A stretch of 58,714 nt of DNA from the IMG/VR virus record IMGVR_UViG_3300045391_004028; one strand, written 5' to 3'. This stretch comes from a virus. Below the pieces are notes generated by a model, which was not told the DNA's origin, searched no databases, and saw only the letters and a program-made list of their open reading frames with translations. Positions 2,765-49,900 of the stretch are shown here, in pieces; within the stretch, counting starts at the first letter, position 1; the number at the start of each line of letters is the position of its first letter. The position numbers were made by a program, and so were the translations under genes.

Positions 2765-2776
2765 CTGGAGATGAGC

Positions 2777-4720: not shown

Positions 4721-4908
4721 GCGCCTCCCTCTCCTGTATTGCGTGGACTTACATGATACCTCACGGGCTACGTTGATCGCATCCCACCGCATCCCGTATC
4801 CCCGGACGGATGCGTAGTCCGGAAACCCGTCCGGAACGGCGACGCGCAGGGGGCACGTGAAGCAGTGCACACCCCGCGCGTCGCGGTAGAGCTGGTGACG
4901 GACGTGCG

Positions 4909-6634: not shown

Positions 6635-6642
6635 CTCTCTCC

Positions 6643-37508: not shown

Positions 37509-39266
37509 TCAGCCGGTCCGCATGTCGACGGTCGCCGAGGTGACGCCGCTCGGGTCGATCGTGGTCTTGATCCGGCGCGACTCGAAGCCCCGCTTGGCGA
37601 CCAGGATGCCCTCCTCGGTGAAGAGCTGGGTGTACTGGTTCAGCGCGAGGTTCGTCGAGTCGTACACGGTGTCGAGCCGCACGACGTCGGAGACGCCCGC
37701 AACCCAGGTGCCGGGCGCGTAGACCAGCGCCTCGACCGTGGTCGGCATCGTGTAGATGCCCGCCGACTGGCCCACGATGCTGGTGTTGGTGCTGTTGTAC
37801 GCGTCCAGCCAGTCGTAGATCCACTGGAGCCGGAGGCCGCGAGCGGTCGCCCAGCCGTTGAACGCGGCCATGGTGACGTTCTCGGCGGCGTCCGGGTCGA
37901 TGCCGGTCCGGCGCGACACGTCGGCGCGCACCGACGCGATCAGCCAGTACGGCAGGACCACTTCCAGCGTCGAGTCCGGGTCCATCCGGTACTTGTACCG
38001 GTAGTCGATCGCCTGGATGTCCAGGATGCCGAGGAGCCGGTTGACGACCGAGAGGTCCTTGTACTCGGTGGTCGTGATCGGCAGGTTCGCCACGTTCGTG
38101 TAGTCGAACAGCGTCGAGCCCGCGACGACCTGGTTGATCTTGAAGATGTTCATCTTCCGGGCGTGCGCCTTGAGCGCGCCGCGCACGAACCGGGCGACCA
38201 TCTCCGGGTAGCCCCGGTCCTGGAGGAACGCGCCGGTGATGCAGACGCCCTCGACCTCCAGCCGCTTCTCCGTGAAGGAGGGGCAGGAGATGACCATGCA
38301 CGGCTTCGACGTGGCCGCCTGGACCTGGGCCTCCGTCTGGTGCCAGTAGCCCGTGCCGGAGAAGATCGTCGAGAAGTCGGGGCCGGTCGTGAACTGGATG
38401 CCGCCGCGCGAGATCTGCACCTCGGGCATGTCGAACATGCCAGCGGTGCCCTCCAGCTCGAAGAGGCCGTAGTCGATCTGCGACGGCGCGCACCACCCGG
38501 CCGCCGCGACCAGGCCGCCCTCCAGCCGGTTCTGGTCGCCCGCGTACTCGAAGACCCGCTGCACGTCCTCCACCGAGGCCCGCTCGCCAAGCTTCAGCTC
38601 CGCCGGGAACTCCCGCTGGAGGTACATGACCGGCGTCCGGATGTACTGGCCGCCGCCCGCGCCGCGCCCGTTCGGGAACGCCGCGAACGCCGCCTCGGCC
38701 GCCCTGGCGACCTCGGTGATGTTCTTGAACTGGTGGCCCGCGTTGACCGTACCCAGGTTCGGCGCCGCGACCATGCGGGAGCCGGTGGTCTGCTGCTCGG
38801 CCGCGACGCCCGGCGCGGCGGGCGTACCCGTGCCCGCTGCCGCGACGTCGGCCACGCGGACGGTGCGACCCGCTGCTGTCACCGCGCCCTCGTCCTTCTG
38901 GTCGCCCTCGGCGCCCTTCTCGTCCTTGCTGTCCTCGTCCTCGTCGGACGTGGTGGTCTCGTCGGCCGGGGCCTCGTCGGCGGGCGGCTCGGTGGCGAAG
39001 ACGGCGACCGCGTCGGCCGCCCTGCGCGCGCTGGTGCTGGCCGCCGACGCCTCGCCGATGCGCCGCTCACGCTCGGCGCGCACGGCGGTGACGACGCCCG
39101 ACAGGCGCGTGATGCCCTCGACCTCTTCGGCTGTCAGCGGCTCGCCCTCGCCGTTGGCGCGCGGCAGCAGTGGCGCGGCGGCCTCGCGCACCTGGACTTC
39201 CAGGGCGTTGAGGTCGGCGTCTGTGACGGTGGAGAAGTCGGTAGGAACTTGGATCTTGTCGAACAC
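37509..39266 (-). CDS. Major capsid protein candidate with N-terminal scaffold-like (delta-like) and acidic linker region
   Basis: GTG at 39266 lies 9 nt after GAGGAG, and the ORF-track ATG at 39350 is an alternative start. Coiled-coil N-terminus, acidic linker and a ~400-aa C-terminal domain with AAAGWCAPSQ and KPCMVISCP segments. Confidence 0.55.
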   Translation of the reverse strand: MFDKIQVPTDFSTVTDADLNALEVQVREAAAPLLPRANGEGEPLTAEEVEGITRLSGVVTAVRAERERRIGEASAASTSARRAADAVAVFATEPPADEAPADETTTSDEDEDSKDEKGAEGDQKDEGAVTAAGRTVRVADVAAAGTGTPAAPGVAAEQQTTGSRMVAAPNLGTVNAGHQFKNITEVARAAEAAFAAFPNGRGAGGGQYIRTPVMYLQREFPAELKLGERASVEDVQRVFEYAGDQNRLEGGLVAAAGWCAPSQIDYGLFELEGTAGMFDMPEVQISRGGIQFTTGPDFSTIFSGTGYWHQTEAQVQAATSKPCMVISCPSFTEKRLEVEGVCITGAFLQDRGYPEMVARFVRGALKAHARKMNIFKINQVVAGSTLFDYTNVANLPITTTEYKDLSVVNRLLGILDIQAIDYRYKYRMDPDSTLEVVLPYWLIASVRADVSRRTGIDPDAAENVTMAAFNGWATARGLRLQWIYDWLDAYNSTNTSIVGQSAGIYTMPTTVEALVYAPGTWVAGVSDVVRLDTVYDSTNLALNQYTQLFTEEGILVAKRGFESRRIKTTIDPSGVTSATVDMRTG

Positions 39267-39396
39267 GAGAGCTGTCTCCTCGTACGGGAGGGAGCGAGAG
39301 GGTGTGATGTCGTCCTCTTCGCGCAGCTCGATCGGCCCACAATCCAGCATCGATGCCTACGGAACGCTACGATAGCAGCATCTCTCTCCTGAGATC

Positions 39397-39440
39397 CACG
39401 GCCCGCTGATTCCCCGGACCCCCGGCGTCGGCGGGCCGTG
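39397..39440. other. Long perfect hairpin in the divergent region between the capsid gene and the antisense island
   Basis: cacggcccgc / gcgggccgtg 10-bp stem with a 24-nt loop. Confidence 0.4.
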
Positions 39441-39463
39441 TGTATTCCCCTGACCAACCCGAG

Positions 39464-39504
39464 TTGACACGTACGTCAACCACGTGTATGCTAGTGGCAT
39501 ACAG
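39464..39504 (+). promoter_or_regulatory. Strong promoter P2 (TTGACA-17-TATGCT) with two dyads
   Basis: TTGACacgtacGTCAA and GTGTATGctagtggCATACAG. Confidence 0.7.
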
Positions 39505-39523
39505 CGAGACGGAGGAGCACCCC

Positions 39524-39718
39524 ATGATGGACAACGCGCTGGTCAACTGGTTCCGGGACCTCCCCGGGGAGATCGTCTCCCTCGGCACCGACCACCCGTA
39601 CGTGATGGTGATGCTGGGCGTGCTCGGCGCGGCGATGGTCTACATCGGCGCCTTCGTGCTCTACCAGCGCCGCCAGGACCGCCGTGACGCACGGGTGACC
39701 GCCCGCCGCTACCGCTAG
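39524..39718 (+). CDS. Small membrane protein (64 aa)
   Basis: ATG after GGAGGAGCACCCC. TM YVMVMLGVLGAAMVYIGAFVLY. Confidence 0.65.
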   Translation: MMDNALVNWFRDLPGEIVSLGTDHPYVMVMLGVLGAAMVYIGAFVLYQRRQDRRDARVTARRYR

Positions 39719-39736
39719 ACCACTCAGGAGAGAGAC

Positions 39737-39898
39737 ATGATCACCACCACCATGCGAGGCAAGGGCCGCCGGGTCGCGAACCGCGTCAAGATCGACCTGC
39801 TCGTGGCTGAGGGCTACACCTGGGCGGGCTGGTACTGCCAGGTCTGCCTAGACGCGAAGTACGCGGTCGTCTTCGGCTCGTACATGGGCGTGAAGTAG
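39737..39898 (+). CDS. Small hypothetical protein (53 aa)
   Basis: ATG after CAGGAGAGAGAC. MITTTMRGKGRRVANRVKIDLLVAEGYTWAGWYCQVCLDAKYAVVFGSYMGVK. Hand-translated and below the ORF-track cutoff. Confidence 0.5.
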   Translation: MITTTMRGKGRRVANRVKIDLLVAEGYTWAGWYCQVCLDAKYAVVFGSYMGVK

Positions 39899-39914
39899 CA
39901 GGTCGCAAGTGGGG

Positions 39915-39955
39915 TTGACAGCAACGTCAGCCCCCTGTATGCTATGAACATACAA
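39915..39955 (+). promoter_or_regulatory. Strong promoter P3 (TTGACA-17-TATGCT) with two dyads
   Basis: TTGACagcaacGTCAg and CTGTATGctatgaaCATACAA. Confidence 0.7.
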
Positions 39956-39992
39956 GCCAGGGGGCAAGGCCCCACGAGGACAGGAGAGAGTC

Positions 39993-40145
39993 ATGATCCT
40001 CAACCCCGATGAGATCGAGCGCCTGCTAGACCTGCTGCGCGAGCAGCGCGACGCCACGGTCAGCGGCGAGCGGAGCGGCTACGGCCAGGCCCGCGATCAG
40101 GAGCTGGCCGACATCGACTTTCTGATCGAGAAGATCGCCCGCTGA
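39993..40145 (+). CDS. Small helical protein (50 aa)
   Basis: ATG after AGGAGAGAGTC. MILNPDEIERLLDLLREQRDATVSGERSGYGQARDQELADIDFLIEKIAR. Confidence 0.5.
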   Translation: MILNPDEIERLLDLLREQRDATVSGERSGYGQARDQELADIDFLIEKIAR

Positions 40146-40157
40146 CGCTCTACCGGT

Positions 40158-40180
40158 CGGGCCCGGCACGTCCGGGCCCG
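40158..40180 (+). terminator. Terminator-like hairpin
   Basis: cgggcccgg cacgt ccgggcccg, a perfect 9-bp stem. Confidence 0.6.
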
Positions 40181-40221
40181 CGCCGTGGGGAATCAGCCCA
40201 GAATCCCAGGAGGAGAAGATC

Positions 40222-40569
40222 ATGAAGGACAGCTCGCTGCCGCCGTTCCTGCTCGACTACCTGGAGGCCCGGTTCAAGGCGGGCGACGTGTTCAGCACGT
40301 CGAGCCTGACCGCGCCACTCGAAAACCTGCTGTACGAGGAGGCGATGGAGGCGTACCGGCTGCGCCTGCGGCTGAAGGACGCGATCGCCAGCCGCGCCCA
40401 GGACAACGAGTGGATGGAGACAGGCCTGAAGGGTGTCAAGCGCATGTACGTGCCGAGTACGGACGACACGCCGCGCCTCGCGGGCCGCATCTACGAGATC
40501 GAGAACCGCGTGCAGCGGCTGATCGACGTGCTGAACGCTCAGCGCAAGGTGTTGCGCGAGGCGAGCTGA
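40222..40569 (+). CDS. Hypothetical protein (115 aa)
   Basis: ORF-track. RBS CAGGAGGAGAAGATC. Confidence 0.7.
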   Translation: MKDSSLPPFLLDYLEARFKAGDVFSTSSLTAPLENLLYEEAMEAYRLRLRLKDAIASRAQDNEWMETGLKGVKRMYVPSTDDTPRLAGRIYEIENRVQRLIDVLNAQRKVLREAS

Positions 40570-40590
40570 GCCAGCCAGTCGACGCACACG

Positions 40591-40615
40591 GCCCCCGGGA
40601 ACAATTCCCGGGGGC
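40591..40615 (+). terminator. Terminator-like hairpin
   Basis: gcccccgggaa caa ttcccgggggc, a perfect 11-bp stem. Confidence 0.65.
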
Positions 40616-40635
40616 TGTACGTTGTGACCATACAG
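40615..40635 (+). promoter_or_regulatory. Copy of the CTGTATG-N7-CATACAG dyad (weak -35) upstream of 40652
   Basis: CTGTACGttgtgacCATACAG directly followed by GAGAGAGG and the ATG. Confidence 0.35.
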
Positions 40636-40651
40636 GAGAGAGGTGAATGAC

Positions 40652-40789
40652 ATGAGCGAAGCACCGATGAGCTGGGAGCTGATCGACGACGAGGACGAGA
40701 CGGCCAGTGAGGCCGAGGCAGAGGACTGGCAGGACCGGGAGCCGGACGAAGGCGAGCGGGAGGAAGGGCTGAAGGGGAGGCAAGGGTGA
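40652..40789 (+). CDS. Small highly acidic protein (45 aa) with WELIDDEDE motif
   Basis: MSEAPMSWELIDDEDETASEAEAEDWQDREPDEGEREEGLKGRQG. The stop overlaps the GTG of the next gene. A 27-nt segment is near-identical to one in 46834..46998. Confidence 0.55.
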   Translation: MSEAPMSWELIDDEDETASEAEAEDWQDREPDEGEREEGLKGRQG

Positions 40790-41184
40790 GGCTTCGAACG
40801 GGTCTCACGGCGCTGGTGGGGCTGGCGGCCGTGGCTGGCGCGTACACGATCATCCACACGGGCTCGCCGGACGAGTGGCGGACCACGGCCATCCAGTGCT
40901 GGTGGAGACCGGATGCGGAGGCGACGCTGGTCTACGACCTGGGCAAGGGCAAGTTCACGAAGGTCGTGAAGCGCGCGAGCAAGGCCCGCCCGCTCAAGAT
41001 CTCCAGCTCGCTCGCACGGCCGGGGCAGATCGTCTACTACGACGTGACGTTGACCTACCCGGCCAAGGCTGATCAGTTCTGGTGCAGGCTCCAGGCTGGT
41101 AACGCCGAGCACCAGGTGGCGGGCGGTGGGCCGGACAAGAGCGCGGGCACGAACCACTGGGCCGACCACTTGACGGTCACGTAA
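40786..41184 (+). CDS. Membrane-anchored/secreted small protein, MmpS-like architecture (paralog 3)
   Basis: TM LTALVGLAAVAGAYTII, ending in FWCRLQAGNAEHQVAGGG, similar to 3909..4313 and 4909..5265. Confidence 0.55.
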   Translation: MRLRTGLTALVGLAAVAGAYTIIHTGSPDEWRTTAIQCWWRPDAEATLVYDLGKGKFTKVVKRASKARPLKISSSLARPGQIVYYDVTLTYPAKADQFWCRLQAGNAEHQVAGGGPDKSAGTNHWADHLTVT

Positions 41185-41202
41185 GGATCTTGATCCCGGG
41201 GG

Positions 41203-41244
41203 TTGACAGGCCAGTCAAGCTCGCTGTATGTTTATGACATACAG
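41203..41244 (+). promoter_or_regulatory. Strong promoter P4 (TTGACA-18-TATGTT) with two dyads
   Basis: TTGACaggccaGTCAA and CTGTATGtttatgaCATACAG. Confidence 0.65.
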
Positions 41245-41282
41245 CGAGGGGCACGGAGCCCCCGGGATCAAGGGAGAGAATC

Positions 41283-41723
41283 ATGGCTGACAAGTACATC
41301 GACGACCTGTTCGCCGCGATCACGGCCGCGCAGGAGCTGGCCGACCTGGCGAAGCTGGAGGTCGAGACCCCGGCACCCGCACCGGCGGCTGTGGCGCCGA
41401 AGTGGAACGGCCTCAGCTACCTGGGCGACGAGGGCACCATCTCCCGCTACGCGGTCAACTACCACGGACAGACGTCCTTCTTCGTCCTGGTGGACAACGC
41501 GATCACCCACGAGCCCACTGAGGCGGGCGTCGCGTGCGCTCCCGGCGTGACCCTGCACCGCATCCACATCCAGAGCGTGGACGGCTCGACGCTGAAGGAC
41601 ACGAACGGGTACGCGGCCCGCTACGAGCACACGGACGGCACCGGTACCCACATCGACTCCCGGACCGTGGCTCAGTACGTCCTGCCGCGCGGCAGGCGAT
41701 TCGCCAAGCAGCTTACGGCCTGA
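41283..41723 (+). CDS. Hypothetical protein (146 aa)
   Basis: ORF-track. RBS AAGGGAGAGAATC. Confidence 0.7.
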   Translation: MADKYIDDLFAAITAAQELADLAKLEVETPAPAPAAVAPKWNGLSYLGDEGTISRYAVNYHGQTSFFVLVDNAITHEPTEAGVACAPGVTLHRIHIQSVDGSTLKDTNGYAARYEHTDGTGTHIDSRTVAQYVLPRGRRFAKQLTA

Positions 41724-41742
41724 GACCGCAGGCCACAGGGGG

Positions 41743-41783
41743 TTGACGGAAACGTCAGCCCCCTGTATGCTAGCTACATACAA
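41743..41783 (+). promoter_or_regulatory. Strong promoter P5 (TTGACG-17-TATGCT) with two dyads
   Basis: TTGACggaaacGTCAg and CTGTATGctagctaCATACAA. Confidence 0.7.
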
Positions 41784-41801
41784 CGAGGACAGGAGAGAGC
41801 C

Positions 41802-41900
41802 ATGCAGCGCAGCACGCAGATCCGGATCATCCTCCACGTGATCGCCTTCGTCATCGGCGTCGGCGGTACCGCCGTCCTGTGGCTCCTGCTCAACCACTGA
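41802..41900 (+). CDS. Micro membrane peptide (32 aa)
   Basis: ATG after AGGAGAGAGCC. MQRSTQIRIILHVIAFVIGVGGTAVLWLLLNH. Confidence 0.5.
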   Translation: MQRSTQIRIILHVIAFVIGVGGTAVLWLLLNH

Positions 41901-41971
41901 CCGACCGCTTCCCGGGCGCCCCGACTAGGGCGGGACGCCCGAGTGGTTGCCGACCAGACAGGAGAGAGATC

Positions 41972-42241
41972 ATGCACTTCGTCGCCGTCCCGTACGAACT
42001 TCCCGCCGAAGACCTCGACTGCAAGGGCCTCGCCGAGCTGTACCGCGAGATGTGGCCCGCCGTGAACCAGGACGCCATCACGCTGTATGTCCAGGAAGGT
42101 CACACGCTCACCGGGCCGTGCACGCAGGTGGACGGGTTCGTGTCGGCCGACGACCAGAGCATCTACTACCAGACCGAGATCATCGCACCGGACGGGCGGC
42201 AGCTCGCGCTACTGACCTGGGACCGGTCGCACACCACCTGA
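41972..42241 (+). CDS. Hypothetical protein (89 aa)
   Basis: ATG after CAGGAGAGAGATC. Internal start of ORF-track 41879..42241. Confidence 0.65.
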   Translation: MHFVAVPYELPAEDLDCKGLAELYREMWPAVNQDAITLYVQEGHTLTGPCTQVDGFVSADDQSIYYQTEIIAPDGRQLALLTWDRSHTT

Positions 42242-42252
42242 GGAGAGAGATC

Positions 42253-42729
42253 GTGCAACGGTTCGACATCACGGACGAGACCATCGGTGCGCAGATCGGG
42301 CACAGCCTGTACGTACTCAATCTGCGCACCGCGCACGTCTTCGGCATCAGCACACCGGCAAAGATGGCCGACGTCGAAGAGATGCGGTCATGGCTCAAGG
42401 CCGCCATCGGTGGCGCCCTCGGCGAGGCACGCGGGATGACCGCCGCGCACAAGATCCTGAACGACCTCATCGACCCGTACGAGTCGATGGATGCCGCGTT
42501 CTGGACCACAGCCCTGGGTAAGGCCGTGGCCTGGTGGACCGGAGGTCCACTGGACCCGGACGGCGTGCCGCGCCCGATCGTGGCGGCGATCCTCGGCTGC
42601 TCCCGGCAGAACATCTTCACCCTCGTCAAGGAGGGCAAGCTTGCCGAGAAGTCGCCGGGCATGCTCACCCAGGAGAGCGTCCGGGCCGCGATGCGCCAGC
42701 GGCACCCGCACCAGATCAAGGAGGGCTGA
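42253..42729 (+). CDS. Hypothetical protein with C-terminal HTH (158 aa)
   Basis: GTG after GAGGAGAGAGATC. AAILGCSRQNIFTLVKEGKL is HTH-like. Confidence 0.6.
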   Translation: MQRFDITDETIGAQIGHSLYVLNLRTAHVFGISTPAKMADVEEMRSWLKAAIGGALGEARGMTAAHKILNDLIDPYESMDAAFWTTALGKAVAWWTGGPLDPDGVPRPIVAAILGCSRQNIFTLVKEGKLAEKSPGMLTQESVRAAMRQRHPHQIKEG

Positions 42730-42732
42730 TCG

Positions 42733-43017
42733 ATGCGTTCCCCAGAACACGAGGCCGCCGTCCGGCGCGCCGACGCGGCACGGCCGCTGTCCGAGCTGCC
42801 GAAGAACCCGACCACTGTCCAGTTGCTCCACCGGCTTCGCGAGCACCTGGAGTCGGCGGGCAACATGGTCGGCGCCGTCATGCTCACCCATCCCGAGGAC
42901 GCTCAACTGATCTCCGACCTGCACGACGTCATCGGCTCGATCGGCGCGGCACTCGGCATCCACGACGCGCTCCGGAACTCGCGCCAGACCGAGGAGGCCG
43001 GGAATGCCCAGTCCTGA
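42733..43017 (+). CDS. Hypothetical helical protein (94 aa), tandem paralog A
   Basis: ORF-track. SPEHEAAVRR...DLHDVIGSIGAAL aligns with the next gene. Confidence 0.65.
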   Translation: MRSPEHEAAVRRADAARPLSELPKNPTTVQLLHRLREHLESAGNMVGAVMLTHPEDAQLISDLHDVIGSIGAALGIHDALRNSRQTEEAGNAQS

Positions 43018-43459
43018 GAAGGAGGCGGCGTTCCGCCGCAACCGGGCCGAGCAGGTGCGGGCTGTCCGGCTCGCCACGCCGTGGCAACGCGACGTGCAAG
43101 CCCTGATCGAGCGCGCACGCTCACACATGGAGCAGGCCGCCAACATCGCCGCAGCCGCGATGCTCGACAGGCTGACCGACGACCAGGCCGTTGCCGACAT
43201 GCACAACGTGATCGGCTGCCTCGCCAGCGCACGGGACAGCCTGGAGCTGATCGGCAACGACCTCACCAAGGAGTGGCAGTACCACTCGGCGAAGTTCGGC
43301 GGGGACGTCTGGTTCGAGGCGGATGGCTCGCAGGGCGACGCCCCCGGCGACGAGCTGACGCCCGAGGCCGAGGCTCGCCGGATGGCGACCGACAAGGTCC
43401 GCTCGCGCTGGGTGGGCCCGTGGCACGAGGAGGAGGCGCGTCCCGATGGGCGTTCCTGA
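43004..43459 (+). CDS. Hypothetical helical protein (151 aa), tandem paralog B
   Basis: ORF-track. SPEKEAAFRR...DMHNVIGCLASAR. Confidence 0.65.
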   Translation: MPSPEKEAAFRRNRAEQVRAVRLATPWQRDVQALIERARSHMEQAANIAAAAMLDRLTDDQAVADMHNVIGCLASARDSLELIGNDLTKEWQYHSAKFGGDVWFEADGSQGDAPGDELTPEAEARRMATDKVRSRWVGPWHEEEARPDGRS

Positions 43460-44063
43460 CGTCATCGCGTACTTCGACGCATTCGAAGGTGACAACGAGT
43501 GGGCAGCCCTGTCGAACTTCTGGCAGGGCTCGCCCCTGCACCTGGGCCCGTACGCCTACGCCACCGGCGAGCACATGTTCCAGGCGCTGAAGGCGCGTAC
43601 GAAGGCCGACCACAACCAGGTGATGGCCAGCGCCACGCCTGCCGAGGCGAAGGCGTACGGCAAGCGCATGCTGCGCCTGCGCCCGGACTGGGAGCTGGTG
43701 AAGTTCGACGTGATGGCCCTGGTGCTCCGGCTCAAGTTCGCGCCGGGCCGCGAGGAGCACGGCTACCTGCTCGCGACGGGGGACTCCTACCTGGTGGAGG
43801 GCAACACCTGGGGCGATCGGGTGTGGGGCGTGGACCTGCGCGAGGGCCGCAAGCTGCTCTCCATCCAGCAGCGCTGCAAGCCCGAGGACGTCTCGCCGGG
43901 GGAGGCGTGGCGGTTCTCGCCGGGCCGCAACTGGCTGGGCCGCCTGCTCATGGCGCGCCGCGCCGAGCTGGTCTCCGGCGAGGACTTCACGCAGAGCACG
44001 AACGACCTGATCGAGTACGTGAAGTACCGGCCGGTGCAGCGGGACGGGGGCACCCGTGGCTGA
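43446..44063 (+). CDS. NADAR (YbiA/DUF1768) family ADP-ribose-processing hydrolase
   Basis: LSNFW, GEHMFQALKA, PAEAKAYGKR...RPDWELVKFDVM...LKF, LLATG..YLVEGN..GDRVWG and GRNWLGRLLM occur in the order of the YbiA/NADAR signature. Confidence 0.8.
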   Translation: MGVPDVIAYFDAFEGDNEWAALSNFWQGSPLHLGPYAYATGEHMFQALKARTKADHNQVMASATPAEAKAYGKRMLRLRPDWELVKFDVMALVLRLKFAPGREEHGYLLATGDSYLVEGNTWGDRVWGVDLREGRKLLSIQQRCKPEDVSPGEAWRFSPGRNWLGRLLMARRAELVSGEDFTQSTNDLIEYVKYRPVQRDGGTRG

Positions 44064-44367
44064 CCAGGGTCTCGAACGGCTGATGGAGGAAGCCATCCGC
44101 GCGATGGCTGTGCAGATCGGCGACCTGCGGGAGGAGGCTTTTGGCTGGCTGTTGACCATGCCGTCCGGCTGGCGCCTGTGCTGGCACGATCAGCAGGCCG
44201 TCATGGGCGTGCAGGGACCGGAGAGCTTCAGGGACGGCCGCGACAGCGCGCGGCTGGCGTGGCGCATCGAGTACCACTTCCTGGGTCCCGGCTCGCAGTG
44301 CTCGGCACCCGGCCCGAAGGAGCAGATCGAAGCACGGGATGGCCTACGCTTGCCGCATGGCGGATGA
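44056..44367 (+). CDS. Hypothetical protein (103 aa)
   Basis: ORF-track. 8-nt overlap with the NADAR gene. Confidence 0.6.
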   Translation: MADQGLERLMEEAIRAMAVQIGDLREEAFGWLLTMPSGWRLCWHDQQAVMGVQGPESFRDGRDSARLAWRIEYHFLGPGSQCSAPGPKEQIEARDGLRLPHGG

Positions 44368-44680
44368 GCTGGAAGTCCCTGCCGACGTGCTGGCGTACGC
44401 GCAGGCCCTCGCCGGACGTCTCGCGCTGGAGGACAACTGGACCCCGGGCGAGACGTTCGCAATCGACCTGACGCGCGCCAGCACCAGGAAGATCACGGAG
44501 TACTGGGTGCACGGCGCCGGGGCCGCGAAGATCAGATGGGGTGTCACCGGCTCCATGAAGCGGTGCATCCGGCACCTGCGCAAGCACGTCGTCGAGCCGG
44601 GCGGGCTCTGCGCCGAGTACCACCATATGGCCACCGGCGAGTGGCCCACCGAGCACGGAAAGGCGGGTATCCCTTCGTAG
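44339..44680 (+). CDS. Hypothetical protein with conserved phage C-terminal motif
   Basis: YWVHGAGAAKIRWG...RCIRHLRKHV..PGGLCAEYHH.ATGEWP is a motif I recall from actinophage head-module proteins. ATG at 44357 is an alternative start. Confidence 0.6.
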   Translation: MAYACRMADELEVPADVLAYAQALAGRLALEDNWTPGETFAIDLTRASTRKITEYWVHGAGAAKIRWGVTGSMKRCIRHLRKHVVEPGGLCAEYHHMATGEWPTEHGKAGIPS

Positions 44681-44899: not shown

Positions 44900-46834
44900 C
44901 TACCGGAAAGCCTGGGCCGCCTGAAGCGCACGCTCGCGCGCGCCCGCGACGTCCAGGAGCTGGAACTCTCCCGCCAGCGTAGCCGCCACCTCGCGGGCCC
45001 GAGCTTCGCGCCGCTGGATGGCGTACAGCTCCCGAGCGATGTCCTCGGCCGAGTAGTCGCCGGAGTGCTGGCCACGCCACGACTCGGGGATCTTGTTCTC
45101 CGCGTTCAGCTCCTTGGCCCGCCGCATGATCAGCCGCCGCAGTGCCGCGCGGTGCTGCTCGGGCGCCCGCCCGTACGACTGGATGGCGTTCTCCAGGTCG
45201 CCGACGGACTCGATCGGGTACGAGCCGTCCGGCAGGGCGTGTCCCTTCTCGGCACTGGCCTTGCGCCCCTTCGTCGACAGATTCGCGTACTCCTCCAGCA
45301 CGCCCGCCGCGACGAGGGCATAGGACCGCCCAGCGGCTTCGTGGACGCGCGGAACGGGGAAGCCCGGGGTGTTGACCGCCAGGGCCGCCACAAGCTCCAT
45401 GGAGCCGCCTACGCGCCGCCAGTCGCCGGACAGCGGGTGCAGCGGCAGCGACGAGAACTTGTCCTCCTGGCCGTGGATCGCCGGGCCGGAGATCCAGATG
45501 CCGAATCGGTCTTCGCCCGCGCGCACGGCCGCGACCGCCGAACCGGCGTCGTCGTAGTGCTCGGCCGCCGCCTGGAAGCCCAGGCGGGTGTCCGCGTGCC
45601 CGCCGCCGAGCGTCACCTTGCCCACGGCCAGCGGGCCCTGGTCGGTCTGGACCTCGCCCACGTGGAAGTAGGCGTAGTTGGTCTTGGACCTGGGCGCGGT
45701 CACGCACCGGTCCTTGAACCCGATGTGGCAGCCCTTCCACGACGCCAGGTGACCGAACATGCGGCCGTTCTCGATCTTGATCGGGGTCAGCTCGGTGAGC
45801 TTCGGGTCCTCGAAGTCGGCCGCCCGGTACACCTGGCCGACCGTCGTCGCGGCGCTGGCTACCAGCGCCGCGCGCTCCCACGGCGGCGACGGCAGCCCGC
45901 ACCGCGCGGCCAGCTCGGTCAACTGCTCACGCATGGCCTGCTTCGTGCCCTCGTCCACGCTCAGCCGCTCCGGCGAGTAGGCGAGCACCGAGATGGCGTC
46001 GGCGACCGCGCCCGGCACGATCTGGAGCCGCCCGTCAACGACATCGGCGACCGGGAACAGGAAGCGGTCGCCCAGGTGGTACAGGGCCGCCCCCTCGCGA
46101 CGGCCGCGCGCCAGCCAGCCCAGCGGGTCCCATTCGGCATCGGCCGCCACGGTGAAGTCGTCGCCGTGACGGAACACACCGGACGCCACGATCGAGGTCT
46201 CGCCAGCGGCGTACTCCTCGGCGTCCACCTCTTCGATGGCGAACGGCCGGGCCTCGGCGAACGCCGGGATCTGCACGAGTGTGACCGCGCTGATCCGTCC
46301 CTTGGTGACCTCGATCTCCGGCCGCGTGTCAGCGGACAGCTCACCGACCTGGTCGCCCAGGGGGTGGAACTCCATGTCGTCCAGGTCCACAGACGGGCCG
46401 ATGACCCGCTTCGACATGAGGAGGTTGGCCTCGGCGACATCTTCAGCCAGTCGTGGAAGCTGCTCCGGGTCGGGGTCGAGCATGACCCCGTAGCCGTAGA
46501 CGCCGGGCCCGTGCCACTCGCCCCACCTCTGCGGATCGCCGTGGTCCTCAGAGAACACTCCGGCGCCATCCATCGTGGCCACGGTGACGGAGGTCTGGTG
46601 GCCCGACTCGTCGGCCCGCTGCCACTTGACCGGAAGCGGCAGGTCCCGCGTGCTGAGCGCGCCCATGGCGAAGCGCCGCTTGTCGCCGGTCGGCACACCG
46701 TACGGGGCGACGATGCCCGCCCAGCGCTTCACCTTCGTGCCGCGCGGGTCCGGGGACGTAACCGGGGCTTCCTCGTCCACGGTGAGGGCCGCGAACTCGT
46801 CGCCGCCGTTGCACCCGCAATCCTGCTCGGCCAT
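44900..46834 (-). CDS. Capsid maturation protease-like protein (two protease-like segments plus C-terminal DLxNAI motif region)
   Basis: LPLPVKWQRADESGH and GHLASWKGCHIGF...YAYFHVGEV...GGGHAD segments look like HK97-type prohead proteases. C-terminal PIESVGDLENAIQSYGRA. ATG at 46834 follows AGGAGG. Confidence 0.55.
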   Translation of the reverse strand: MAEQDCGCNGGDEFAALTVDEEAPVTSPDPRGTKVKRWAGIVAPYGVPTGDKRRFAMGALSTRDLPLPVKWQRADESGHQTSVTVATMDGAGVFSEDHGDPQRWGEWHGPGVYGYGVMLDPDPEQLPRLAEDVAEANLLMSKRVIGPSVDLDDMEFHPLGDQVGELSADTRPEIEVTKGRISAVTLVQIPAFAEARPFAIEEVDAEEYAAGETSIVASGVFRHGDDFTVAADAEWDPLGWLARGRREGAALYHLGDRFLFPVADVVDGRLQIVPGAVADAISVLAYSPERLSVDEGTKQAMREQLTELAARCGLPSPPWERAALVASAATTVGQVYRAADFEDPKLTELTPIKIENGRMFGHLASWKGCHIGFKDRCVTAPRSKTNYAYFHVGEVQTDQGPLAVGKVTLGGGHADTRLGFQAAAEHYDDAGSAVAAVRAGEDRFGIWISGPAIHGQEDKFSSLPLHPLSGDWRRVGGSMELVAALAVNTPGFPVPRVHEAAGRSYALVAAGVLEEYANLSTKGRKASAEKGHALPDGSYPIESVGDLENAIQSYGRAPEQHRAALRRLIMRRAKELNAENKIPESWRGQHSGDYSAEDIARELYAIQRREARAREVAATLAGEFQLLDVAGARERALQAAQAFR

Positions 46835-46998
46835 CACGCCTCCTGCCGCGCCGGGCGGCTCTCCGCCTGCCGCTCTGGTACAGGGTACGGCTCGACGGGC
46901 CGGTTCAGGATCTCGTCGATCTCGCCCGCGTCCAGCCCGCGCTCCTCGTCCTCGTCGTCGACAAGCTCCCAGCGGGGCTCGTTGTCTTCGATGCTCAC
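46834..46998 (-). CDS. Small highly acidic protein (54 aa) with WELVDDEDE motif, immediately downstream of the ART gene
   Basis: GTGA overlap with the ART stop and TGATG overlap with the protease start. VSIEDNEPRWELVDDEDEERGLDAGEIDEILNRPVEPYPVPERQAESRPARQEA. Confidence 0.55.
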   Translation of the reverse strand: MSIEDNEPRWELVDDEDEERGLDAGEIDEILNRPVEPYPVPERQAESRPARQEA

Positions 46999-49900
46999 TT
47001 CGGGGTCACCACCCTGACTCGTACGTGCGTCTGCCCGCCCTTCTCCTCGACGGAGAGGACACGGAACCTGGTGCCAGCCGCCAGGAGCATTTCGTTCTCG
47101 GAGGAGTACTGCGACTTGGCCTTGACGAACAGCGCATGCGTTCCGGCCGGGGCCTCGATCGTCAGCTTCACCGGGCCGTGGAAGCCCTGACCGCCCCCGG
47201 CAACCGTGGTGGACATGAACGCCTTGTCCTCGAAGGTCTTGCCGATGAGCTTCTTCAGGTTGTCGGCGCCCTGGAACTCCTTGGGCACGAAATTCCAGCC
47301 GGTCCCCCGGTTGAGCAGATGATCACTCTGGAGCGGCATCATGGCGTCCTGGATCATCAGGACGTCCTTCTTCGTCTGCTCGCTGGCCTTGAACGGCGGA
47401 TACAGGTTGCCGCTGGAGTCCTTGCCGCGCAGGTACGCGTTCATCTGCGTGTACGCGTTGCCGGTGTAGCGAGTAACGGCCTTCCAGTGCCCGGCCGAGA
47501 GCACCTTGCCGTTGTTGAACAGGTAGTCGTCCAGCTCCTTCTGGGCCTGCTGTGGCGTGTGCGGGTGGAAGTCGGTCGCTGGCTTGTTCGGGTCGTACTT
47601 GCCGGGGCCGGGCTTGGTCTGGATGAGCTGGCCAGCCTTGAGACCGGGCAGCTTCGGCGGCGGTGCCGTGTACCCGGCCAGGCTGTTGACCTTCGCTGGG
47701 CTGACTACGTGGTTCTTTACGTAGGCGGCACCGGCTGGCGTGGCCATCCAGTCCTTGATCTTGTTCTCCAGCATGTTCGCGTTCGGCACGCCCAGGTTGT
47801 TCGCGATCTGGGAGTCGACGGTCTGCATGATGTCGGCCACGGAGAGGTTCTTCGGAAAGCCCGCCTTGCCCGCCAGCGCCGAGGCCGTCGCGGTCAGGTT
47901 GTCCCACTTCTCGGAGTCGTCGGCGGACATGTAGGCGCCCGCGCCGAAGCTCTTGTAGGCCGAGTGGATGGTGAGCATCTGCGCACTGTCGAGCTTGTGC
48001 GACCCGGTGAGCTTGGCGGCCGTGGGGCCGCTCGGCGCCGCCTTCTTCGCCGCCGTCTTCACGGCCGCCGGTGCGCTGTGCGTCGAGCCGCCGCCCGCGC
48101 CAGCCGGGGAGCCGCCGCCGTTCAGGTCCAGGTAGTCCTTGATCTGGGCGAGCAGGTGGCTGGACTTCCACGACTCGACGATCGGCGAGTCCGGGGCCCA
48201 CCCGTTCGCCGCTACCTGCTTGGCGGCCTCCTCGGCGGTGTTCTTGGCCATCTTCGGCAGCTCGGCCGCCAGGCCGCCCGGCGTGGTGTCGCCGTTCTTC
48301 AGGGCCTTCATGTAGTCGGCCTTGAGGGCGTCCGAGATCTTCATCAGCGTCTCGCCGCCGGTCCAGTTCTCGTCGACTCCGCTCAGGCCAGCGGTCGTGA
48401 TGATGTGGTGCGCGAATGCCTTGTTCGAGAGCTGGTTCACCACGGTCGTTTCCCCGCCGGGTACGAACGCGTCCAGCGACGACGGAGCGGGCAGGCCCGC
48501 GTGCTCGTAGAGCTTCGCGATCTGCGCGTCCGTGGGGCCGCCGCCCAGCGGGTCGATCTTGTTCTTCTCGTGCCACGCGTCAATGGCGTCCATGACGCCC
48601 TGGAGCCCGCTCTCCTTCGTCGAGTCGTGCTTGAGCGCCTTCTCGTGCAGCGCCTCCAGCGCATCGAGTACCGGCGTCGGCTCGCCGTCCTGAAGGATCG
48701 CAGACTTGATCTCGGCGGTCAGCGGGTCGAGGACGTGCTTCTTCTCCGCCTCGTCGGCGTTCGTGACGTCGAGCTTGTCCAGCAGGTCGTTCGTCAGCGC
48801 CTCGGCGAAGATCTTGGAGGTGCTGTTTCCGAAGCCGGTGCCGTGCTGCTTGGTATTGAGGATCTTGTCGGCGAGCTGGGCCTTCCAGGTCGGATCGGCT
48901 GACGTCTTCGGGTCCAACCAGGAGTTGATCTGGAGGATCTTGTCGGCGCCCGCGTTCGCCGCCGCCTGCTCCACGCTCGTCGGCGCCGGTGCACCCAGGT
49001 CGGTGCTCGGTGCCGTGGTGTCGGCCGCCCCGCCGGAACCCGCGCCGCCGCCGGTCGCCAGGCCCAGCTTGGCCTTGACCGCGTTGACCTGCTCCTTCTT
49101 CTTCGGGTCGAGGAACTTGTCATGGATCTTGTCCAGGTCGGCCAGGATCAGCTTCTGGCTCGACGGGCTGAGCGACTGGAACTCCTCCGGCGTCAGCTTC
49201 TCGTACGCGGCCAGCTTCTGCTTTGCCGTGCCGGTCTTCGAGCCCATCGCGTAGCCTGCGGCGTCGGCCGCCGCCGGGGACAGCCCGGGACCAGCGCCGA
49301 CCTGCTCCACCTTCGAGACGTTCTCGGGCAGGCTCGCGGTCGGGCCCGGCTCCGGGATGCCCGGCTTCGGGGCAGGCGCCGGGGTGGGCTCGTCGGCGGG
49401 CGGTGGGACGATGCCGAACTTCTCCGCGAGCTTGACCGCCTTCGGGTCGCCGCTCTCGGCGTAGAACTTCACCTGGGCTTGCACCGAGTTGTGCAGGTCG
49501 GAGGGCAGGTTCTGGTACTCGGCGACGCCCATCTTGCCGAACTCGTCCATCACCTCGTCCACCGGCATGAACGGGTTGGATACCGCCTGACCGGCCGCGA
49601 TCTGCGCCGGGGACAGGTCGGTTTTCCCGCTCGTGGAGCCGGTGAGGAAGGCAAGGATGCCCTTGGCCGGACCGTTCGGGTCGTCGTCGTGCATCTTCTT
49701 CAGGTCGGCCAGGAGCGCGTGCTGCTGGTCCGGGGGGAGCGCCAGGAACGCCTTCGGGTCCACGCTGCCGTACAGGAGGGCCTTGTCCGTCGCCCCCAGC
49801 GGAACGGGCGCCTGGCCCATCGCCGCCTTCCCGGCCGCCTGGGCGGCAAGCTGGGCGGCCTGCTCCGGCGTCGGCGGCGTGTTCGGCGTCAGCGGCTCGT

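What the first reader, a model, noticed from the sequence alone, without database searches (positions are those of the whole stretch)
43446..44063. Phage-encoded NADAR: candidate eraser of nucleic-acid ADP-ribosylation, either partner of the phage's own ART or anti-DarT counter-defence
The 205-aa product carries the ordered NADAR/YbiA signature: LSNFW, GEHMFQALKA, PAEAKAYGKR, RPDW..VK..VM, LLATG..LVEG, DRVWG and NWLG.LLM. NADAR enzymes are established to remove ADP-ribose from guanine bases modified by DarT1-type and pierisin/Scabin-type R-S-E transferases. This genome also encodes a capsid-module R-S-E ART (46995..51092).
Two hypotheses are worth testing:
- The phage writes ADP-ribose with an injected ART and later erases it or protects its own DNA with NADAR.
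- NADAR neutralises a host DarT-like abortive-infection toxin.
The combination in one phage genome is not something I know to be described.
Basis: partly seen in the sequence, partly recalled or inferred. Interest (0 to 1): 0.75.

Follow-up and report, generated by a model that had tools for sequence, protein, structure and literature searches.

The report
Phage NADAR ADP-ribose eraser, not ART-linked
This actinophage gene does encode an intact NADAR enzyme that removes ADP-ribose from DNA bases, but phages are already known to use such enzymes to disarm the bacterial DarT1 toxin, and it shows no link to the phage's own ADP-ribosyltransferase.

Summary
ORF 43446..44063 (+) encodes a 205-aa NADAR protein. 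It scores 79.4 bits against Pfam PF08719 (cut-off 35.1). The AF2 model has pLDDT 93 and matches only YbiA and P. nicotianae NADAR in the PDB. All eight catalytic or ADPr-contact positions are conserved.

The closest tested relative is AdfN-Bas32 (40% identity). It is a phage NADAR that neutralises the guanine-ADP-ribosylating toxin DarT1. The best explanation is therefore an orphan-antitoxin-type counter-defence enzyme, probably transcribed from host-type promoters in a plus-strand accessory island.

The "partner of the phage's own ART" idea is not supported:
- The ART is a VIP2/C3-type E-x-E enzyme that resembles protein-arginine ARTs, not the Q-x-E guanine ARTs.
- Among 20 related genomes, NADAR and ART presence are independent (Fisher p = 1.0).
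- Three relatives keep NADAR but carry NUDIX in place of ART, and six keep ART without NADAR.

The combination is also not new. T4 encodes the injected ART Alt and the NADAR 30.3 less than 3 kb apart.

Two relatives carry an ARH-type eraser in the same island, which is modestly interesting. Verdict: new member of a known kind, low to moderate interest.

The parts
43446..44063 (+). NADAR gene (205 aa). Proposed catalytic and ADP-ribose-contact residues are E42, K49, K73, W82, K86, E118, D124 and W127. Residues ~129-160 form a two-helix insertion absent from AdfN-Bas32 and YbiA but at the same site as the insertion in P. nicotianae NADAR. Residues ~176-205 form a C-terminal tail.
43424..43436 (+). 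Shine-Dalgarno-like purine run (GAGGAGGAGG) about 9 nt upstream of the NADAR ATG. The NADAR start overlaps the end of the upstream gene (43004..43459) by 14 nt, which suggests translational coupling within an operon.
   Evidence: Sequence printed; ORF table.
41743..41771 (+). Nearest upstream sigma-70-like promoter/operator element (TTGACG-N17-TATGCT with an internal CGTCA). It is the probable promoter of the operon 41879..44680 that includes NADAR.
   Evidence: 3 matches in the window, 0.01 expected, all in the island and on the + strand. The motif recurs on the island strand in sibling phages.
39464..39492 (+). First island promoter/operator-like element (TTGACA-N17-TATGCT).
39915..39943 (+). 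Second island promoter/operator-like element, nearly identical to the one at 41743.
39440..44680 (+). Plus-strand accessory island of about 13 small genes. It is inserted antisense into the minus-strand head module, between the major capsid gene (37509..39350) and the protease-like gene (44900..46837). NADAR is one of its two best-conserved genes; the other is 44339..44680.
46995..51092 (-). Context only; there is no evidence it is a functional partner. A 1365-aa head-module protein directly after MuF, with a conserved ~100-aa N-terminus, a low-complexity middle and a C-terminal VIP2/C3-type ART domain (R1262, S1294-T-T, E1332-x-E1334). Sibling phages have NUDIX in place of the ART domain.

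Best explanation
The gene encodes a stand-alone (orphan) NADAR ADP-ribosylglycohydrolase that acts as a phage counter-defence enzyme of the AdfN type.

Proposed mechanism:
1. The gene is transcribed with the other genes of the plus-strand accessory island from host-type sigma-70-like promoters, probably early in infection.
2. The enzyme binds ADP-ribose attached through an N-glycosidic bond to the exocyclic amine of guanine in phage DNA or RNA. Because it has the Glu-type active site, it may also act on cytosine.
3. It hydrolyses that bond. This removes replication- and transcription-blocking adducts placed by a host nucleic-acid ADP-ribosyltransferase. The likely source is a DarT1-type toxin of a DarTG1 abortive-infection system. 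A pierisin-family (ScARP/Scabin-like) enzyme of an actinobacterial host is also conceivable.

Shown here: family membership, fold, conservation of all catalytic residues, homology to a validated AdfN, conservation across a phage lineage, independence from the phage's ART, and the promoter-like sites. Inferred: the enzymatic activity itself, the timing of expression, and the identity of the host enzyme that is countered.
For: NADAR membership and fold:
- Pfam NADAR scores 79.4 bits against a 35.1 cut-off.
- The AF2 model has pLDDT 93.3. Its only significant PDB matches are YbiA and P. nicotianae NADAR bound to ADP-ribose, both at probability 1.0.
- 45 viral matches at E <= 0.001, those that carry a name being almost all NADAR proteins.

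Active site:
- Alignment to PnNADAR places E42, K49, K73, W82, K86, E118, D124 and W127 on its E43, K50, R79, W89, R93, E125, D130 and W133 (residue roles from PMC11543638).
- E42, K49, W82, K86, E118 and W127 are invariant, and D124 is conserved in at least 90%, across 41 homologues that diverge to 46% identity. This indicates selection for catalysis.

Closest tested relative:
- The protein is 40% identical (E = 9e-24) to bas32_0066 of phage IrisVonRoten (Bas32), with the same EGNTWGD.WGV strand.
- AdfN-Bas32 neutralises DarT1 in E. coli and rescues three DarTG1-sensitive phages (PMC11825919).
- All NADAR subfamilies tested so far hydrolyse G-ADPr. Glu-type NADARs also hydrolyse C-ADPr (PMC11125620; PMC12945103).

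Context:
- The gene is an orphan, with no adjacent toxin gene.
- It sits in a variable accessory island with three sigma-70-like promoters against 0.01 expected.
- The same island in siblings carries other conflict-type genes: an ARH eraser in L036 and L028, and a C5 DNA methylase in L030.
- DarTG is reported as enriched in Actinobacteria (PMC10482375). The nearest cultured phage infects Actinoplanes.
Against: - No activity was measured.
- The host is unknown, so the presence of DarT1 or any guanine-ART in it is untested.
- The best-known actinobacterial DarTG (M. tuberculosis) is the thymidine-specific DarTG2, which NADARs do not reverse.
- In-vitro G-ADPr hydrolysis does not guarantee protection in vivo. 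E. coli YbiA and T4 30.3 failed to rescue DarT1 toxicity in uninfected cells (PMC11125620).
- The window protein lies on the YbiA/PnNADAR side of the superfamily. A profile search did not hit the DarT1-linked G. lovleyi NADAR at E <= 1.
- 8 of the 11 NADAR-bearing relatives do carry the ART, so a looser functional relationship is not excluded.
- The promoter sites are consensus matches only. Early expression is inferred.
Confidence: 0.55

Rival explanations
1. The NADAR is the dedicated eraser or immunity partner of the phage's own capsid-delivered ART. The ART-fusion protein is injected (or is made late, before packaging) and ADP-ribosylates targets. NADAR then removes those marks, either to protect phage DNA and the producing cell or to limit how long the modification lasts.
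For: - Both genes lie within 3 kb of each other in the window.
- 8 of the 11 NADAR-bearing genomes of the lineage also have the ART.
- Two siblings without NADAR carry another ADPr eraser (ARH, PF03747) in the same island. One of them (L036) is ART-positive.
- A precedent exists: the prophage MuF-ART Bxa is neutralised by an adjacent ARH1-family hydrolase (PMC11699363).
- NADAR/YbiA proteins serve as antitoxins to ARTs in the DarT1 and YarT systems (PMC11125620).
Against: - There is no association between the two genes: NADAR+/ART+ 8, NADAR+/ART- 3, NADAR-/ART+ 6, NADAR-/ART- 3 (odds ratio 1.33, p = 1.0).
- Three siblings keep NADAR in the same island slot while NUDIX replaces the ART. In one of them, 46 of 60.9 kb was scanned and no ART was found.
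- About 20 more distant relatives have the ART but no NADAR within 10 kb.
- In public phage records the two families have almost disjoint host genera.
- The ART's PDB matches are all protein ARTs: Lmo0066, C3larvin, Certhrax, Tre1, BEC, Vip2, iota and SpvB. None is Scabin, ScARP or pierisin.
- Its ARTT loop is Y-S-S-E-N-E, not phi-x-x-Q-x-E.
- In the papers read here, NADAR substrates are base-linked ADPr only; none reports activity on Arg-ADPr.
- In MuF-toxin systems the immunity genes directly abut the toxin gene. Here that position is held by a 54-aa ORF (46834..46998) whose sequence type tracks the effector type.
- In T4, Alt and the NADAR coexist, yet the NADAR's demonstrated role is anti-DarT1.
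Confidence: 0.1
2. The NADAR processes soluble ADP-ribose-derived molecules rather than modified nucleic acid. Examples are cyclic or variant ADPr immune signals, or N-glycosidic ADPr by-products. It would work alongside capsid-delivered NUDIX/ART effectors as part of a general toolkit against host NAD+/ADPr-based immunity, as proposed by Iyer, Burroughs, Anantharaman and Aravind.
For: - PMC9503650 proposes this role for most phage Macro/NADAR/Nudix proteins and reports their genomic co-occurrence.
- Three siblings combine NADAR with a head-packaged NUDIX domain.
- The protein lacks the basic N-terminal DNA-binding extension of DarG1-type NADARs, based on comparison with the description in PMC11543638.
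Against: - In the papers read here, no NADAR is shown to cleave an immune-signalling nucleotide.
- Every NADAR tested so far hydrolyses base-linked ADPr.
- The closest tested relative acts on DarT1-modified DNA in vivo.
- NADAR occurs with ART as often as with NUDIX, so there is no specific NUDIX coupling.
Confidence: 0.15
3. The protein is a housekeeping-type YbiA/COG3236 N-glycosidase that destroys reactive riboflavin-pathway intermediates. It would be an auxiliary metabolic gene.
For: - The best PDB sequence match is E. coli YbiA (profile E = 3.7e-23).
- The diagnostic residue is Glu, as in the YbiA family.
- TIGR02464 (riboflavin-intermediate N-glycosidase) matches at E = 7e-19.
- JGI names the homologues 'ribA/ribD-fused uncharacterized protein'.
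Against: - The TIGR02464 score (68.5) is below its trusted cut-off (73.7). The validated anti-DarT1 protein AdfN-Bas32 gives almost the same sub-threshold score (66.3).
- There is no RibA/RibD fusion. None of the seven island ORFs scanned has a Pfam match above its family's cut-off.
- Homologues at 50% identity or more are almost all on phage-sized metagenomic contigs.
- YbiA-family enzymes themselves hydrolyse G- and C-ADPr.
Confidence: 0.05

Closest known systems
AdfN-Bas32 (bas32_0066 of Escherichia phage IrisVonRoten, a T5-like Markadamsvirinae phage): a phage orphan NADAR that neutralises DarT1
   Same: - Phage-encoded and stand-alone, with no adjacent toxin gene.
- 40% identity over the whole core (E = 9e-24), with an identical EGNTWGD.WGV active-site strand including the Glu.
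- Both score just below the TIGR02464 cut-off.
   Different: - The window protein is 56 aa longer. It has an 18-aa N-terminal extension, a ~22-aa two-helix insertion (residues ~134-155) and a ~30-aa C-terminal tail.
- The host is probably an actinobacterium rather than an enterobacterium.
- The gene lies in an antisense island inside the head module rather than among early genes next to rnhA.
- Its activity has not been tested.
T4 gp30.3 (AdfN-T4), together with T4 Alt
   Same: - The same genome-level combination: a capsid-packaged, injected R-S-E ART (alt) and a NADAR (30.3), 2.8 kb apart.
- The NADAR removes G-ADPr from phage DNA to defeat DarTG1.
   Different: - T4-type NADARs form a separate family (Pfam PF08010), with His at the diagnostic position.
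- The window protein does not match PF08010. A profile comparison aligns with 30.3 only partly (hhalign probability 80%, 55 columns).
- AdfN-T4 needs an additional T-even phage factor. AdfN-Bas32 does not.
Phytophthora nicotianae NADAR (PDB 8BAU) and E. coli YbiA (PDB 2B3W)
   Same: - The same fold (Foldseek probability 1.0, TM-score 0.59-0.70).
- The same Glu-type catalytic set.
- An insertion at the same site as in PnNADAR, between the D-x-x-W-G strand and the G-x-N-x-L-G helix.
   Different: - Only ~28% identity.
- Both are cellular proteins.
- YbiA is implicated in riboflavin-intermediate clearance and does not rescue DarT1 toxicity in vivo.
DarG1 (the DarT1-linked NADAR antitoxin; BC4488 family)
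   Same: The same superfamily and the same proposed chemistry, hydrolysis of N2-guanine-ADPr.
   Different: - DarG1 has Asp at the diagnostic position, a basic N-terminal beta-beta-alpha DNA-binding extension, and sits in an operon with DarT1.
- The window protein has Glu and no adjacent DarT. Its profile does not reach the G. lovleyi NADAR structure at E <= 1. PADLOC gives no DarG hit.
Bxa-BAH (a prophage MuF-ART toxin with an ARH1-family enzymatic immunity protein)
   Same: - A head-module, MuF-associated, Arg-type ART.
- An ADP-ribose eraser encoded by the same phage. PHROG 16625 'Bxa ADP-ribosyl transferase' matches the window ART.
   Different: - BAH is an ARH-fold enzyme encoded directly beside the toxin, and it reverses Arg-ADPr.
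- The window eraser has a NADAR fold, lies 2.9 kb away on the other strand, and is uncoupled from the ART across relatives.
- The ARH found in siblings L036 and L028 is the closer analogue of BAH.

Membership tests
NADAR superfamily (Pfam PF08719 / DUF1768) | A match to the family profile above the curated gathering score, over essentially the full domain. | tested here: met
   79.4 bits against 35.1, profile positions 8-162 of 163.
NADAR superfamily (Pfam PF08719 / DUF1768) | The YbiA-like alpha-helical core fold flanked by small beta-hairpins. | tested here: met
   AF2 model pLDDT 93.3, pTM 0.88. Foldseek against the PDB finds only 2B3W (YbiA) and 8BAU (PnNADAR) at E < 1e-6, probability 1.0. 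45 viral matches at E <= 0.001, those that carry a name being almost all NADAR proteins.
NADAR superfamily (Pfam PF08719 / DUF1768) | The catalytic and ADPr-binding residues equivalent to PnNADAR E43, K50, R79, W89, R93, E125, D130 and W133. | tested here: met
   E42, K49, K73 (for R), W82, K86 (for R), E118, D124 and W127 by alignment. They are invariant or nearly invariant in 41 homologues.
NADAR superfamily (Pfam PF08719 / DUF1768) | Hydrolysis of N-glycosidic ADP-ribose-guanine linkages. | not testable with these tools
   This needs a biochemical assay.
Glu-type NADARs (YbiA family and 'NADAR' family sensu Mikolcevic 2026), as opposed to DarG1 (Asp) and T4-type (His) | Glu at the diagnostic position in the last beta-strand (PnNADAR E125, SCO5665 E167). 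| tested here: met
   E118 in L-V-E-G, invariant across 41 homologues. The rule comes from PMC11543638, PMC11125620 and PMC12945103.
DarG1 / BC4488 (DarT1-linked antitoxin NADAR) | Asp at the diagnostic position, an N-terminal beta1-beta2-alpha1 basic extension, and an operon with DarT1. | tested here: not met
   Glu rather than Asp. The model shows only ~18 unstructured N-terminal residues before the core. The neighbouring genes give no ART, DarT or PADLOC match. The G. lovleyi NADAR is not matched at E <= 1.
T4-type phage NADAR (Pfam PF08010, Phage_30_3) | A match to PF08010, and His at the diagnostic position. | tested here: not met
   No PF08010 match at E <= 0.01. Glu rather than His. hhalign against T4 30.3 gives only 80% probability over 55 columns.
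AdfN (functional class: phage orphan NADAR anti-DarT1 factor) | Phage-encoded, orphan (no cognate toxin gene), and homologous to an experimentally validated AdfN. | tested here: met
   The phage context comes from terminase, portal, MuF, capsid and tape-measure genes. There is no adjacent toxin gene. The protein is 40% identical to AdfN-Bas32, E = 9e-24.
AdfN (functional class: phage orphan NADAR anti-DarT1 factor) | Neutralises DarT1 toxicity, restores plaquing on DarTG1 hosts, and depends on the catalytic residues. | not testable with these tools
   This needs in-vivo assays. The host and its defence repertoire are unknown.
Riboflavin-intermediate N-glycosidase (NCBIfam TIGR02464 equivalog domain) | A score above the curated cut-off; usually a RibA/RibD fusion or a rib-gene context. 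| tested here: not met
   68.5 bits against a cut-off of 73.7. The protein is a single domain, and none of the seven island ORFs scanned has a Pfam match above its family's cut-off.
Bacterial NADAR anti-phage protein (NCBIfam NF053876, DS-32 system) | A score above the equivalog cut-off. | tested here: not met
   62.8 bits against a cut-off of 240.
Pierisin / ScARP / Scabin family of guanine-targeting ARTs (asked of the phage's ART, as the partner hypothesis requires) | Sequence relationship to the family, and an ARTT loop phi-x-x-Q-x-E with the Gln that reads the base. | tested here: not met
   None of the 28 PDB matches at E <= 1 is a pierisin-family member. The matches are Lmo0066, C3larvin, Certhrax, Tre1, BEC, C3, Vip2, Vis, SpvB, CDTa and iota. 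The ARTT loop is Y-S-S-E1332-N-E1334. The rule comes from PMC12945103.
C3/VIP2-type R-S-E ARTs (Pfam PF03496) (the phage's ART) | A profile match above the cut-off, with an R, S-T-S/T, E-x-E catalytic triad. | tested here: met
   59.6 bits against 23.4. R1262, S1294-T-T and E1332-x-E1334 align to the corresponding residues of Lmo0066 and C3larvin.

The most novel reading that the evidence does not exclude
In this phiAsp2-like actinophage lineage, the antisense island inside the head module may be a dedicated slot for ADP-ribose erasers, holding either NADAR or ARH. Under this reading the NADAR counters an actinobacterial pierisin-family (ScARP/Scabin-like) or other non-DarT enzyme that ADP-ribosylates guanine or cytosine and acts as an anti-phage defence. 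That would be the first link between that toxin family and phage immunity. Because the NADAR has the Glu-type active site, it would also be the first case of a phage erasing cytidine-ADPr.

A less likely variant is that the NADAR reverses nucleic-acid marks written by the phage's own VIP2-like ART. That would make this ART the first of its clade known to target bases.
Probability: 0.15. Interest if true: 0.65.

Novelty: new member of a known kind. Interest (0 to 1): 0.3.

Why it matters
If the best explanation holds, the AdfN counter-defence strategy extends from enterobacterial phages into a lineage of ~60-kb high-GC, probably actinobacterial, phages. It would also imply that their hosts ADP-ribosylate bases in nucleic acids as a defence. 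DarTG is reported as enriched in Actinobacteria.

This is an incremental result. Phage NADARs, their activity and their anti-DarT1 role have already been shown experimentally.

The lineage-level picture found on the way is more useful:
- a swappable capsid-delivered effector (ART or NUDIX);
- an accessory island that alternately holds NADAR or ARH erasers.

This gives a compact natural system for testing which ADP-ribosylation events matter during infection of actinobacteria.

Tried and rejected
1. DNA-level similarity to known phages. Megablast of the gene and of 24 kb around it against 50,697 phage records found nothing. The genome is novel at the nucleotide level, so the comparison had to be made at protein level.

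2. phiAsp2 as a NADAR or ART carrier. The nearest cultured phage shares the portal, MuF, protease-like and capsid genes and the antisense island, but has neither NADAR nor ART.

3. A conserved partner gene next to NADAR. The upstream 151-aa gene (43004..43459) and most other island genes are not conserved beyond the closest sibling. Only NADAR and 44339..44680 are. The latter is a head-protein-associated domain in distant relatives, so it is not a NADAR-specific partner.

4. Extending sibling genomes with single-protein anchors from the window (a replication gene and the terminase). These reached only the closest relatives. Walking with the sibling's own edge genes worked, but covered only 46 of 60.9 kb of the NUDIX-type sibling. 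Bases 1-12605 and 58730-60905 remain unscanned.

5. Host identification through cellular homologues. The genome-collection scan found only homologues of 50% identity or less, in scattered phyla. The Micromonospora copy is itself in a phage-like context. The host was not identified.

6. Defence-system membership. PADLOC gave only a weak hit to the candidate family PDC-M42C. NCBIfam DS-32 was far below its cut-off.

7. Function of Lmo0066, the ART's best PDB match. No paper in the library describes its target. The ScARP structure paper (PMC6130946) is not held, so the motif rule was taken from PMC12945103 instead.

8. A structure prediction of the ART domain was considered but not run. The sequence and motif evidence was judged sufficient, and the alignment rules would have required another large database search.
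Full report
**1. The observation**

The window contains an ATG-to-stop ORF at 43446..44063 on the plus strand, encoding 205 aa. Its third-position GC is 0.95, which matches the real genes of this 69% GC sequence. A GAGGAGGAGG run lies 9 nt before the start codon.

- Pfam NADAR (PF08719) matches at E = 4.6e-22, 79.4 bits against a gathering score of 35.1, over essentially the whole domain.
- PHROG 1017 matches at E = 8e-31.
- An AlphaFold2 model built on 41 homologues has mean pLDDT 93.3.
- Its only significant matches in the PDB are E. coli YbiA and the Phytophthora nicotianae NADAR-ADP-ribose complex.
- In the viral structure library, 45 proteins match at E <= 0.001, and those that carry a name are almost all NADAR proteins.

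**2. Is the enzyme intact, and of which type?**

Schuller et al. defined the ADP-ribose contacts of PnNADAR as E43, K50, R79, W89, R93, E125, D130 and W133. They also showed that the equivalents of K50 and E125 are needed for guanine de-ADP-ribosylation (PMC11543638). In the HMMER alignments these positions fall on E42, K49, K73, W82, K86, E118, D124 and W127 of the window protein. E42, K49, W82, K86, E118 and W127 are invariant, and D124 is at least 90% conserved, across 41 homologues that diverge to 46% identity.

The residue that separates the subfamilies is Glu in YbiA/"NADAR" types, Asp in DarT1-linked DarG1, and His in T4-type phage NADARs. Here it is Glu.

- A profile of the family reaches YbiA (E = 3.7e-23) and PnNADAR (E = 6e-18), but not the DarT1-linked G. 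lovleyi NADAR even at E <= 1.
- It does not match the T4-type family PF08010.
- It scores just under the cut-off of the riboflavin N-glycosidase equivalog TIGR02464 (68.5 vs 73.7 bits).
- It scores far under the cut-off of the bacterial DS-32 anti-phage NADAR (62.8 vs 240 bits).

Relative to YbiA and the T5-like phage proteins, it carries a two-helix insertion (about residues 129-160). The insertion is at the same site as the one that forms part of the fold extension beside the active site in PnNADAR (PMC11543638).

**3. What is already known about phage NADARs**

Johannesman et al. (PMC11825919) showed three things:
- T4 gp30.3 and two unrelated phage NADARs (AdfN-Bas32 and AdfN-Bas60) remove ADP-ribose from guanine.
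- They neutralise DarT1 and restore plaquing on DarTG1 hosts.
- Phages have acquired NADARs several times independently.

Cihlova et al. and Mikolcevic et al. showed that every NADAR subfamily tested hydrolyses G-ADPr, and that Glu-type members also hydrolyse C-ADPr written by the Streptomyces enzymes ScARP and Scabin.

A tblastn search of the window protein finds homologues in 453 phage records. Among them are a large T5-like group at about 40% identity and 125 Streptomyces phages. I traced the T5-like group to phage IrisVonRoten, which is Bas32. Its protein bas32_0066 is 40% identical to the window protein (E = 9e-24) and shares the EGNTWGD.WGV active-site strand. This is the closest experimentally characterised relative. 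According to the paper, it works without any other phage factor.

**4. The genome and the gene's setting**

The window looks like a complete siphovirus-type genome. On the minus strand it has terminase, portal, MuF, a protease-like gene, the major capsid gene and a tape-measure gene. The nearest cultured relative is Actinoplanes phage phiAsp2 (58,638 bp; capsid 42% identical).

NADAR lies in a plus-strand island (39440..44680, about 13 small genes). The island interrupts the minus-strand head module between the protease-like gene and the capsid gene. phiAsp2 and about 20 metagenomic relatives of 58-62 kb share this unusual layout.

The island holds three near-identical sigma-70-like elements, TTGACR-N17-TATGYT, all on its coding strand, against 0.01 expected by chance. 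The same motif recurs on the island strand in relatives. This suggests transcription by host RNA polymerase. The timing of that transcription is inferred, not shown.

NADAR and the 113-aa gene at 44339..44680 are the only island genes conserved across the lineage.

**5. Testing the "partner of the phage's own ART" idea**

The ART is real (PF03496, E = 3e-16). It is the C-terminal domain of a 1365-aa protein encoded directly after MuF.

*Chemistry.* Its PDB matches are all protein-modifying ARTs: Lmo0066, C3larvin, Certhrax, Tre1, BEC, C3, Vip2, Vis, SpvB, CDTa and iota. No pierisin-family member appears at E <= 1. Public actinophage records annotate its homologues as "VIP2-like ADP-ribosyltransferase toxin". 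Its ARTT loop reads Y-S-S-E-N-E (E1332, E1334). In ScARP, by contrast, the Gln of phi-x-x-Q-x-E reads the base, and a Q162S change abolishes activity (PMC12945103). The prophage MuF-ART Bxa, whose PHROG family matches this domain, modifies arginine.

*Co-occurrence.* I collected relatives without selecting on NADAR, using the capsid protein as anchor. I then scanned every ORF with profiles for NADAR, ART, NUDIX and ARH. The count covers distinct genomes in which both the island and the effector region are covered:

| | ART present | ART absent |
|---|---|---|
| NADAR present | 8 | 3 |
| NADAR absent | 6 | 3 |

The odds ratio is 1.33 and Fisher p = 1.0.

- The three NADAR-positive, ART-negative genomes keep NADAR in the same island slot, but the post-MuF protein ends in a NUDIX domain instead (PF00293, E = 1e-16).
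- For one of them I scanned 46 of 60.9 kb and found no ART.
- About 20 more distant relatives have the ART but no NADAR within 10 kb. Three others have NADAR elsewhere and no ART near the head module.

*Position.* In characterised MuF toxins the immunity genes directly abut the toxin gene. Here that position is taken by a 54-aa acidic ORF (46834..46998). Its sequence type differs between ART-type and NUDIX-type relatives.

*The combination is not new.* In T4, alt (packaged in the capsid and injected) and 30.3 (the NADAR AdfN) lie 2.8 kb apart. The NADAR's demonstrated role there is anti-DarT1, and it is unrelated to Alt.

**6. A point in favour of the rival**

Two NADAR-less relatives (L036 and L028) carry an ADP-ribosylglycohydrolase in the island (PF03747, E = 1e-62 and 2e-56). 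L036 has the ART. The ARH family includes the Arg-ADPr erasers, such as BAH, the enzymatic immunity protein of Bxa. An ART-plus-eraser logic may therefore hold for those phages. The island does appear to be a recurrent home for ADP-ribose erasers. However, another sibling island carries a C5 DNA methylase. Four further ART-positive islands gave no eraser match: none hits the NADAR or ARH profiles, and their larger ORFs (at least ~150 aa) have no Pfam match to any eraser family. A fifth (L035, whose ART lies on L112 of the same contig) gave the same result. The simpler reading is a variable counter-defence or accessory island.

**7. Conclusion**

- **Most likely (about 0.55):** the gene is an AdfN-type orphan NADAR that strips ADP-ribose from guanine, and possibly cytosine, in phage nucleic acid modified by a host ART. 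DarTG is reported as enriched in Actinobacteria (PMC10482375), and actinobacteria also make ScARP/Scabin-type base ARTs. The host of this phage and its defences remain unknown.
- **Rivals:** processing of soluble ADPr-derived signals (0.15), a partner of the phage ART (0.10), and riboflavin-intermediate clearance (0.05).

This is a new member of a known kind. The first hypothesis and the novelty claim do not hold up.

Noticed in passing
window 39440..44680 (+), between 37509..39350 (-) and 44900..46837 (-): An accessory island of small genes is inserted antisense into the head-morphogenesis operon, between the protease-like gene and the major capsid gene. The same layout occurs in Actinoplanes phage phiAsp2 (pas8-pas13) and in about 20 metagenomic relatives. 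The island's gene content is highly variable.
   Followed up: partly
window 39464-39492, 39915-39943, 41743-41771 (+); also 41203-41232: Three near-identical promoter/operator-like sites, TTGACR-N4-CGTCAR-N7-TGTATGCT, occur against 0.01 expected. A TTGAC/GTCAA inverted repeat overlaps the -35, which suggests a repressor operator. The motif occurs only in the island and recurs on the island strand in six sibling phages (L007, L019, L020, L024, L025, L036).
   Followed up: partly
window 46995..51092 (-); siblings L004:14763-19337, L006:14914-19392, L007:4974-9737: The giant post-MuF head protein is a polymorphic effector. It has a conserved ~100-aa N-terminus and a low-complexity Ala/Pro/Lys-rich middle. 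Its C-terminal module is swappable: a VIP2-like ART in some relatives, or NUDIX plus an uncharacterised ~264-aa tail in others. L022 has two ART genes in tandem.
   Followed up: partly
window 46834..46998 (-): A 54-aa highly acidic ORF overlaps the stop of the ART gene by 4 nt. ART-type and NUDIX-type relatives carry different versions of this small ORF. By analogy with the MuF toxins Bxa and Apk2, it is a candidate cognate immunity protein or packaging chaperone.
   Followed up: partly
L036:5677-6738 (-) and L028:236-1792 (-): Sibling phages that lack NADAR carry an ADP-ribosylglycohydrolase (ARH/DraG family, PF03747, E = 1e-62 and 2e-56) in the equivalent island. L036 also has the capsid ART, an arrangement reminiscent of Bxa-BAH.
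   Followed up: partly
L030:7373-8452 (-): Another sibling's island encodes a C5 cytosine DNA methylase (PF00145, E = 4e-28). This fits the island being a counter-defence or accessory slot.
   Followed up: no
window 44339..44680 (+): This 113-aa gene (PHROG 6439) is the most widely conserved island gene, and it is present even in NADAR-less siblings. In more distant relatives the homologous segment is part of the large protease-like/MuF fusion ORF (PHROG 21406). It is therefore probably a virion-associated domain that has become a separate gene on the opposite strand.
   Followed up: partly
window ~42238..42729 (+): This is a probable gene with a helix-turn-helix-like segment (…IVAAILGCSRQNIFTLVKEGKL…). 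It is hidden inside a longer spurious ORF (41947..42729). It has no Pfam, NCBIfam or PADLOC match.
   Followed up: partly
L185:5818-6420 (Micromonospora sp. CB01531): This is the only NADAR homologue (39% identity) found in the genome collection in a genus of the same family as Actinoplanes, the host of the nearest cultured phage. It sits next to an HNH/NUMOD4 endonuclease gene and a PD-(D/E)XK nuclease gene, which is a prophage-like context.
   Followed up: partly
L018 (T4 NC_000866: 123454-128765): In T4, alt (the injected ART) and 30.3 (the NADAR AdfN) are separated only by alt.1, gene 30 (DNA ligase), 30.1 and 30.2. The papers read here do not comment on this proximity.
   Followed up: no
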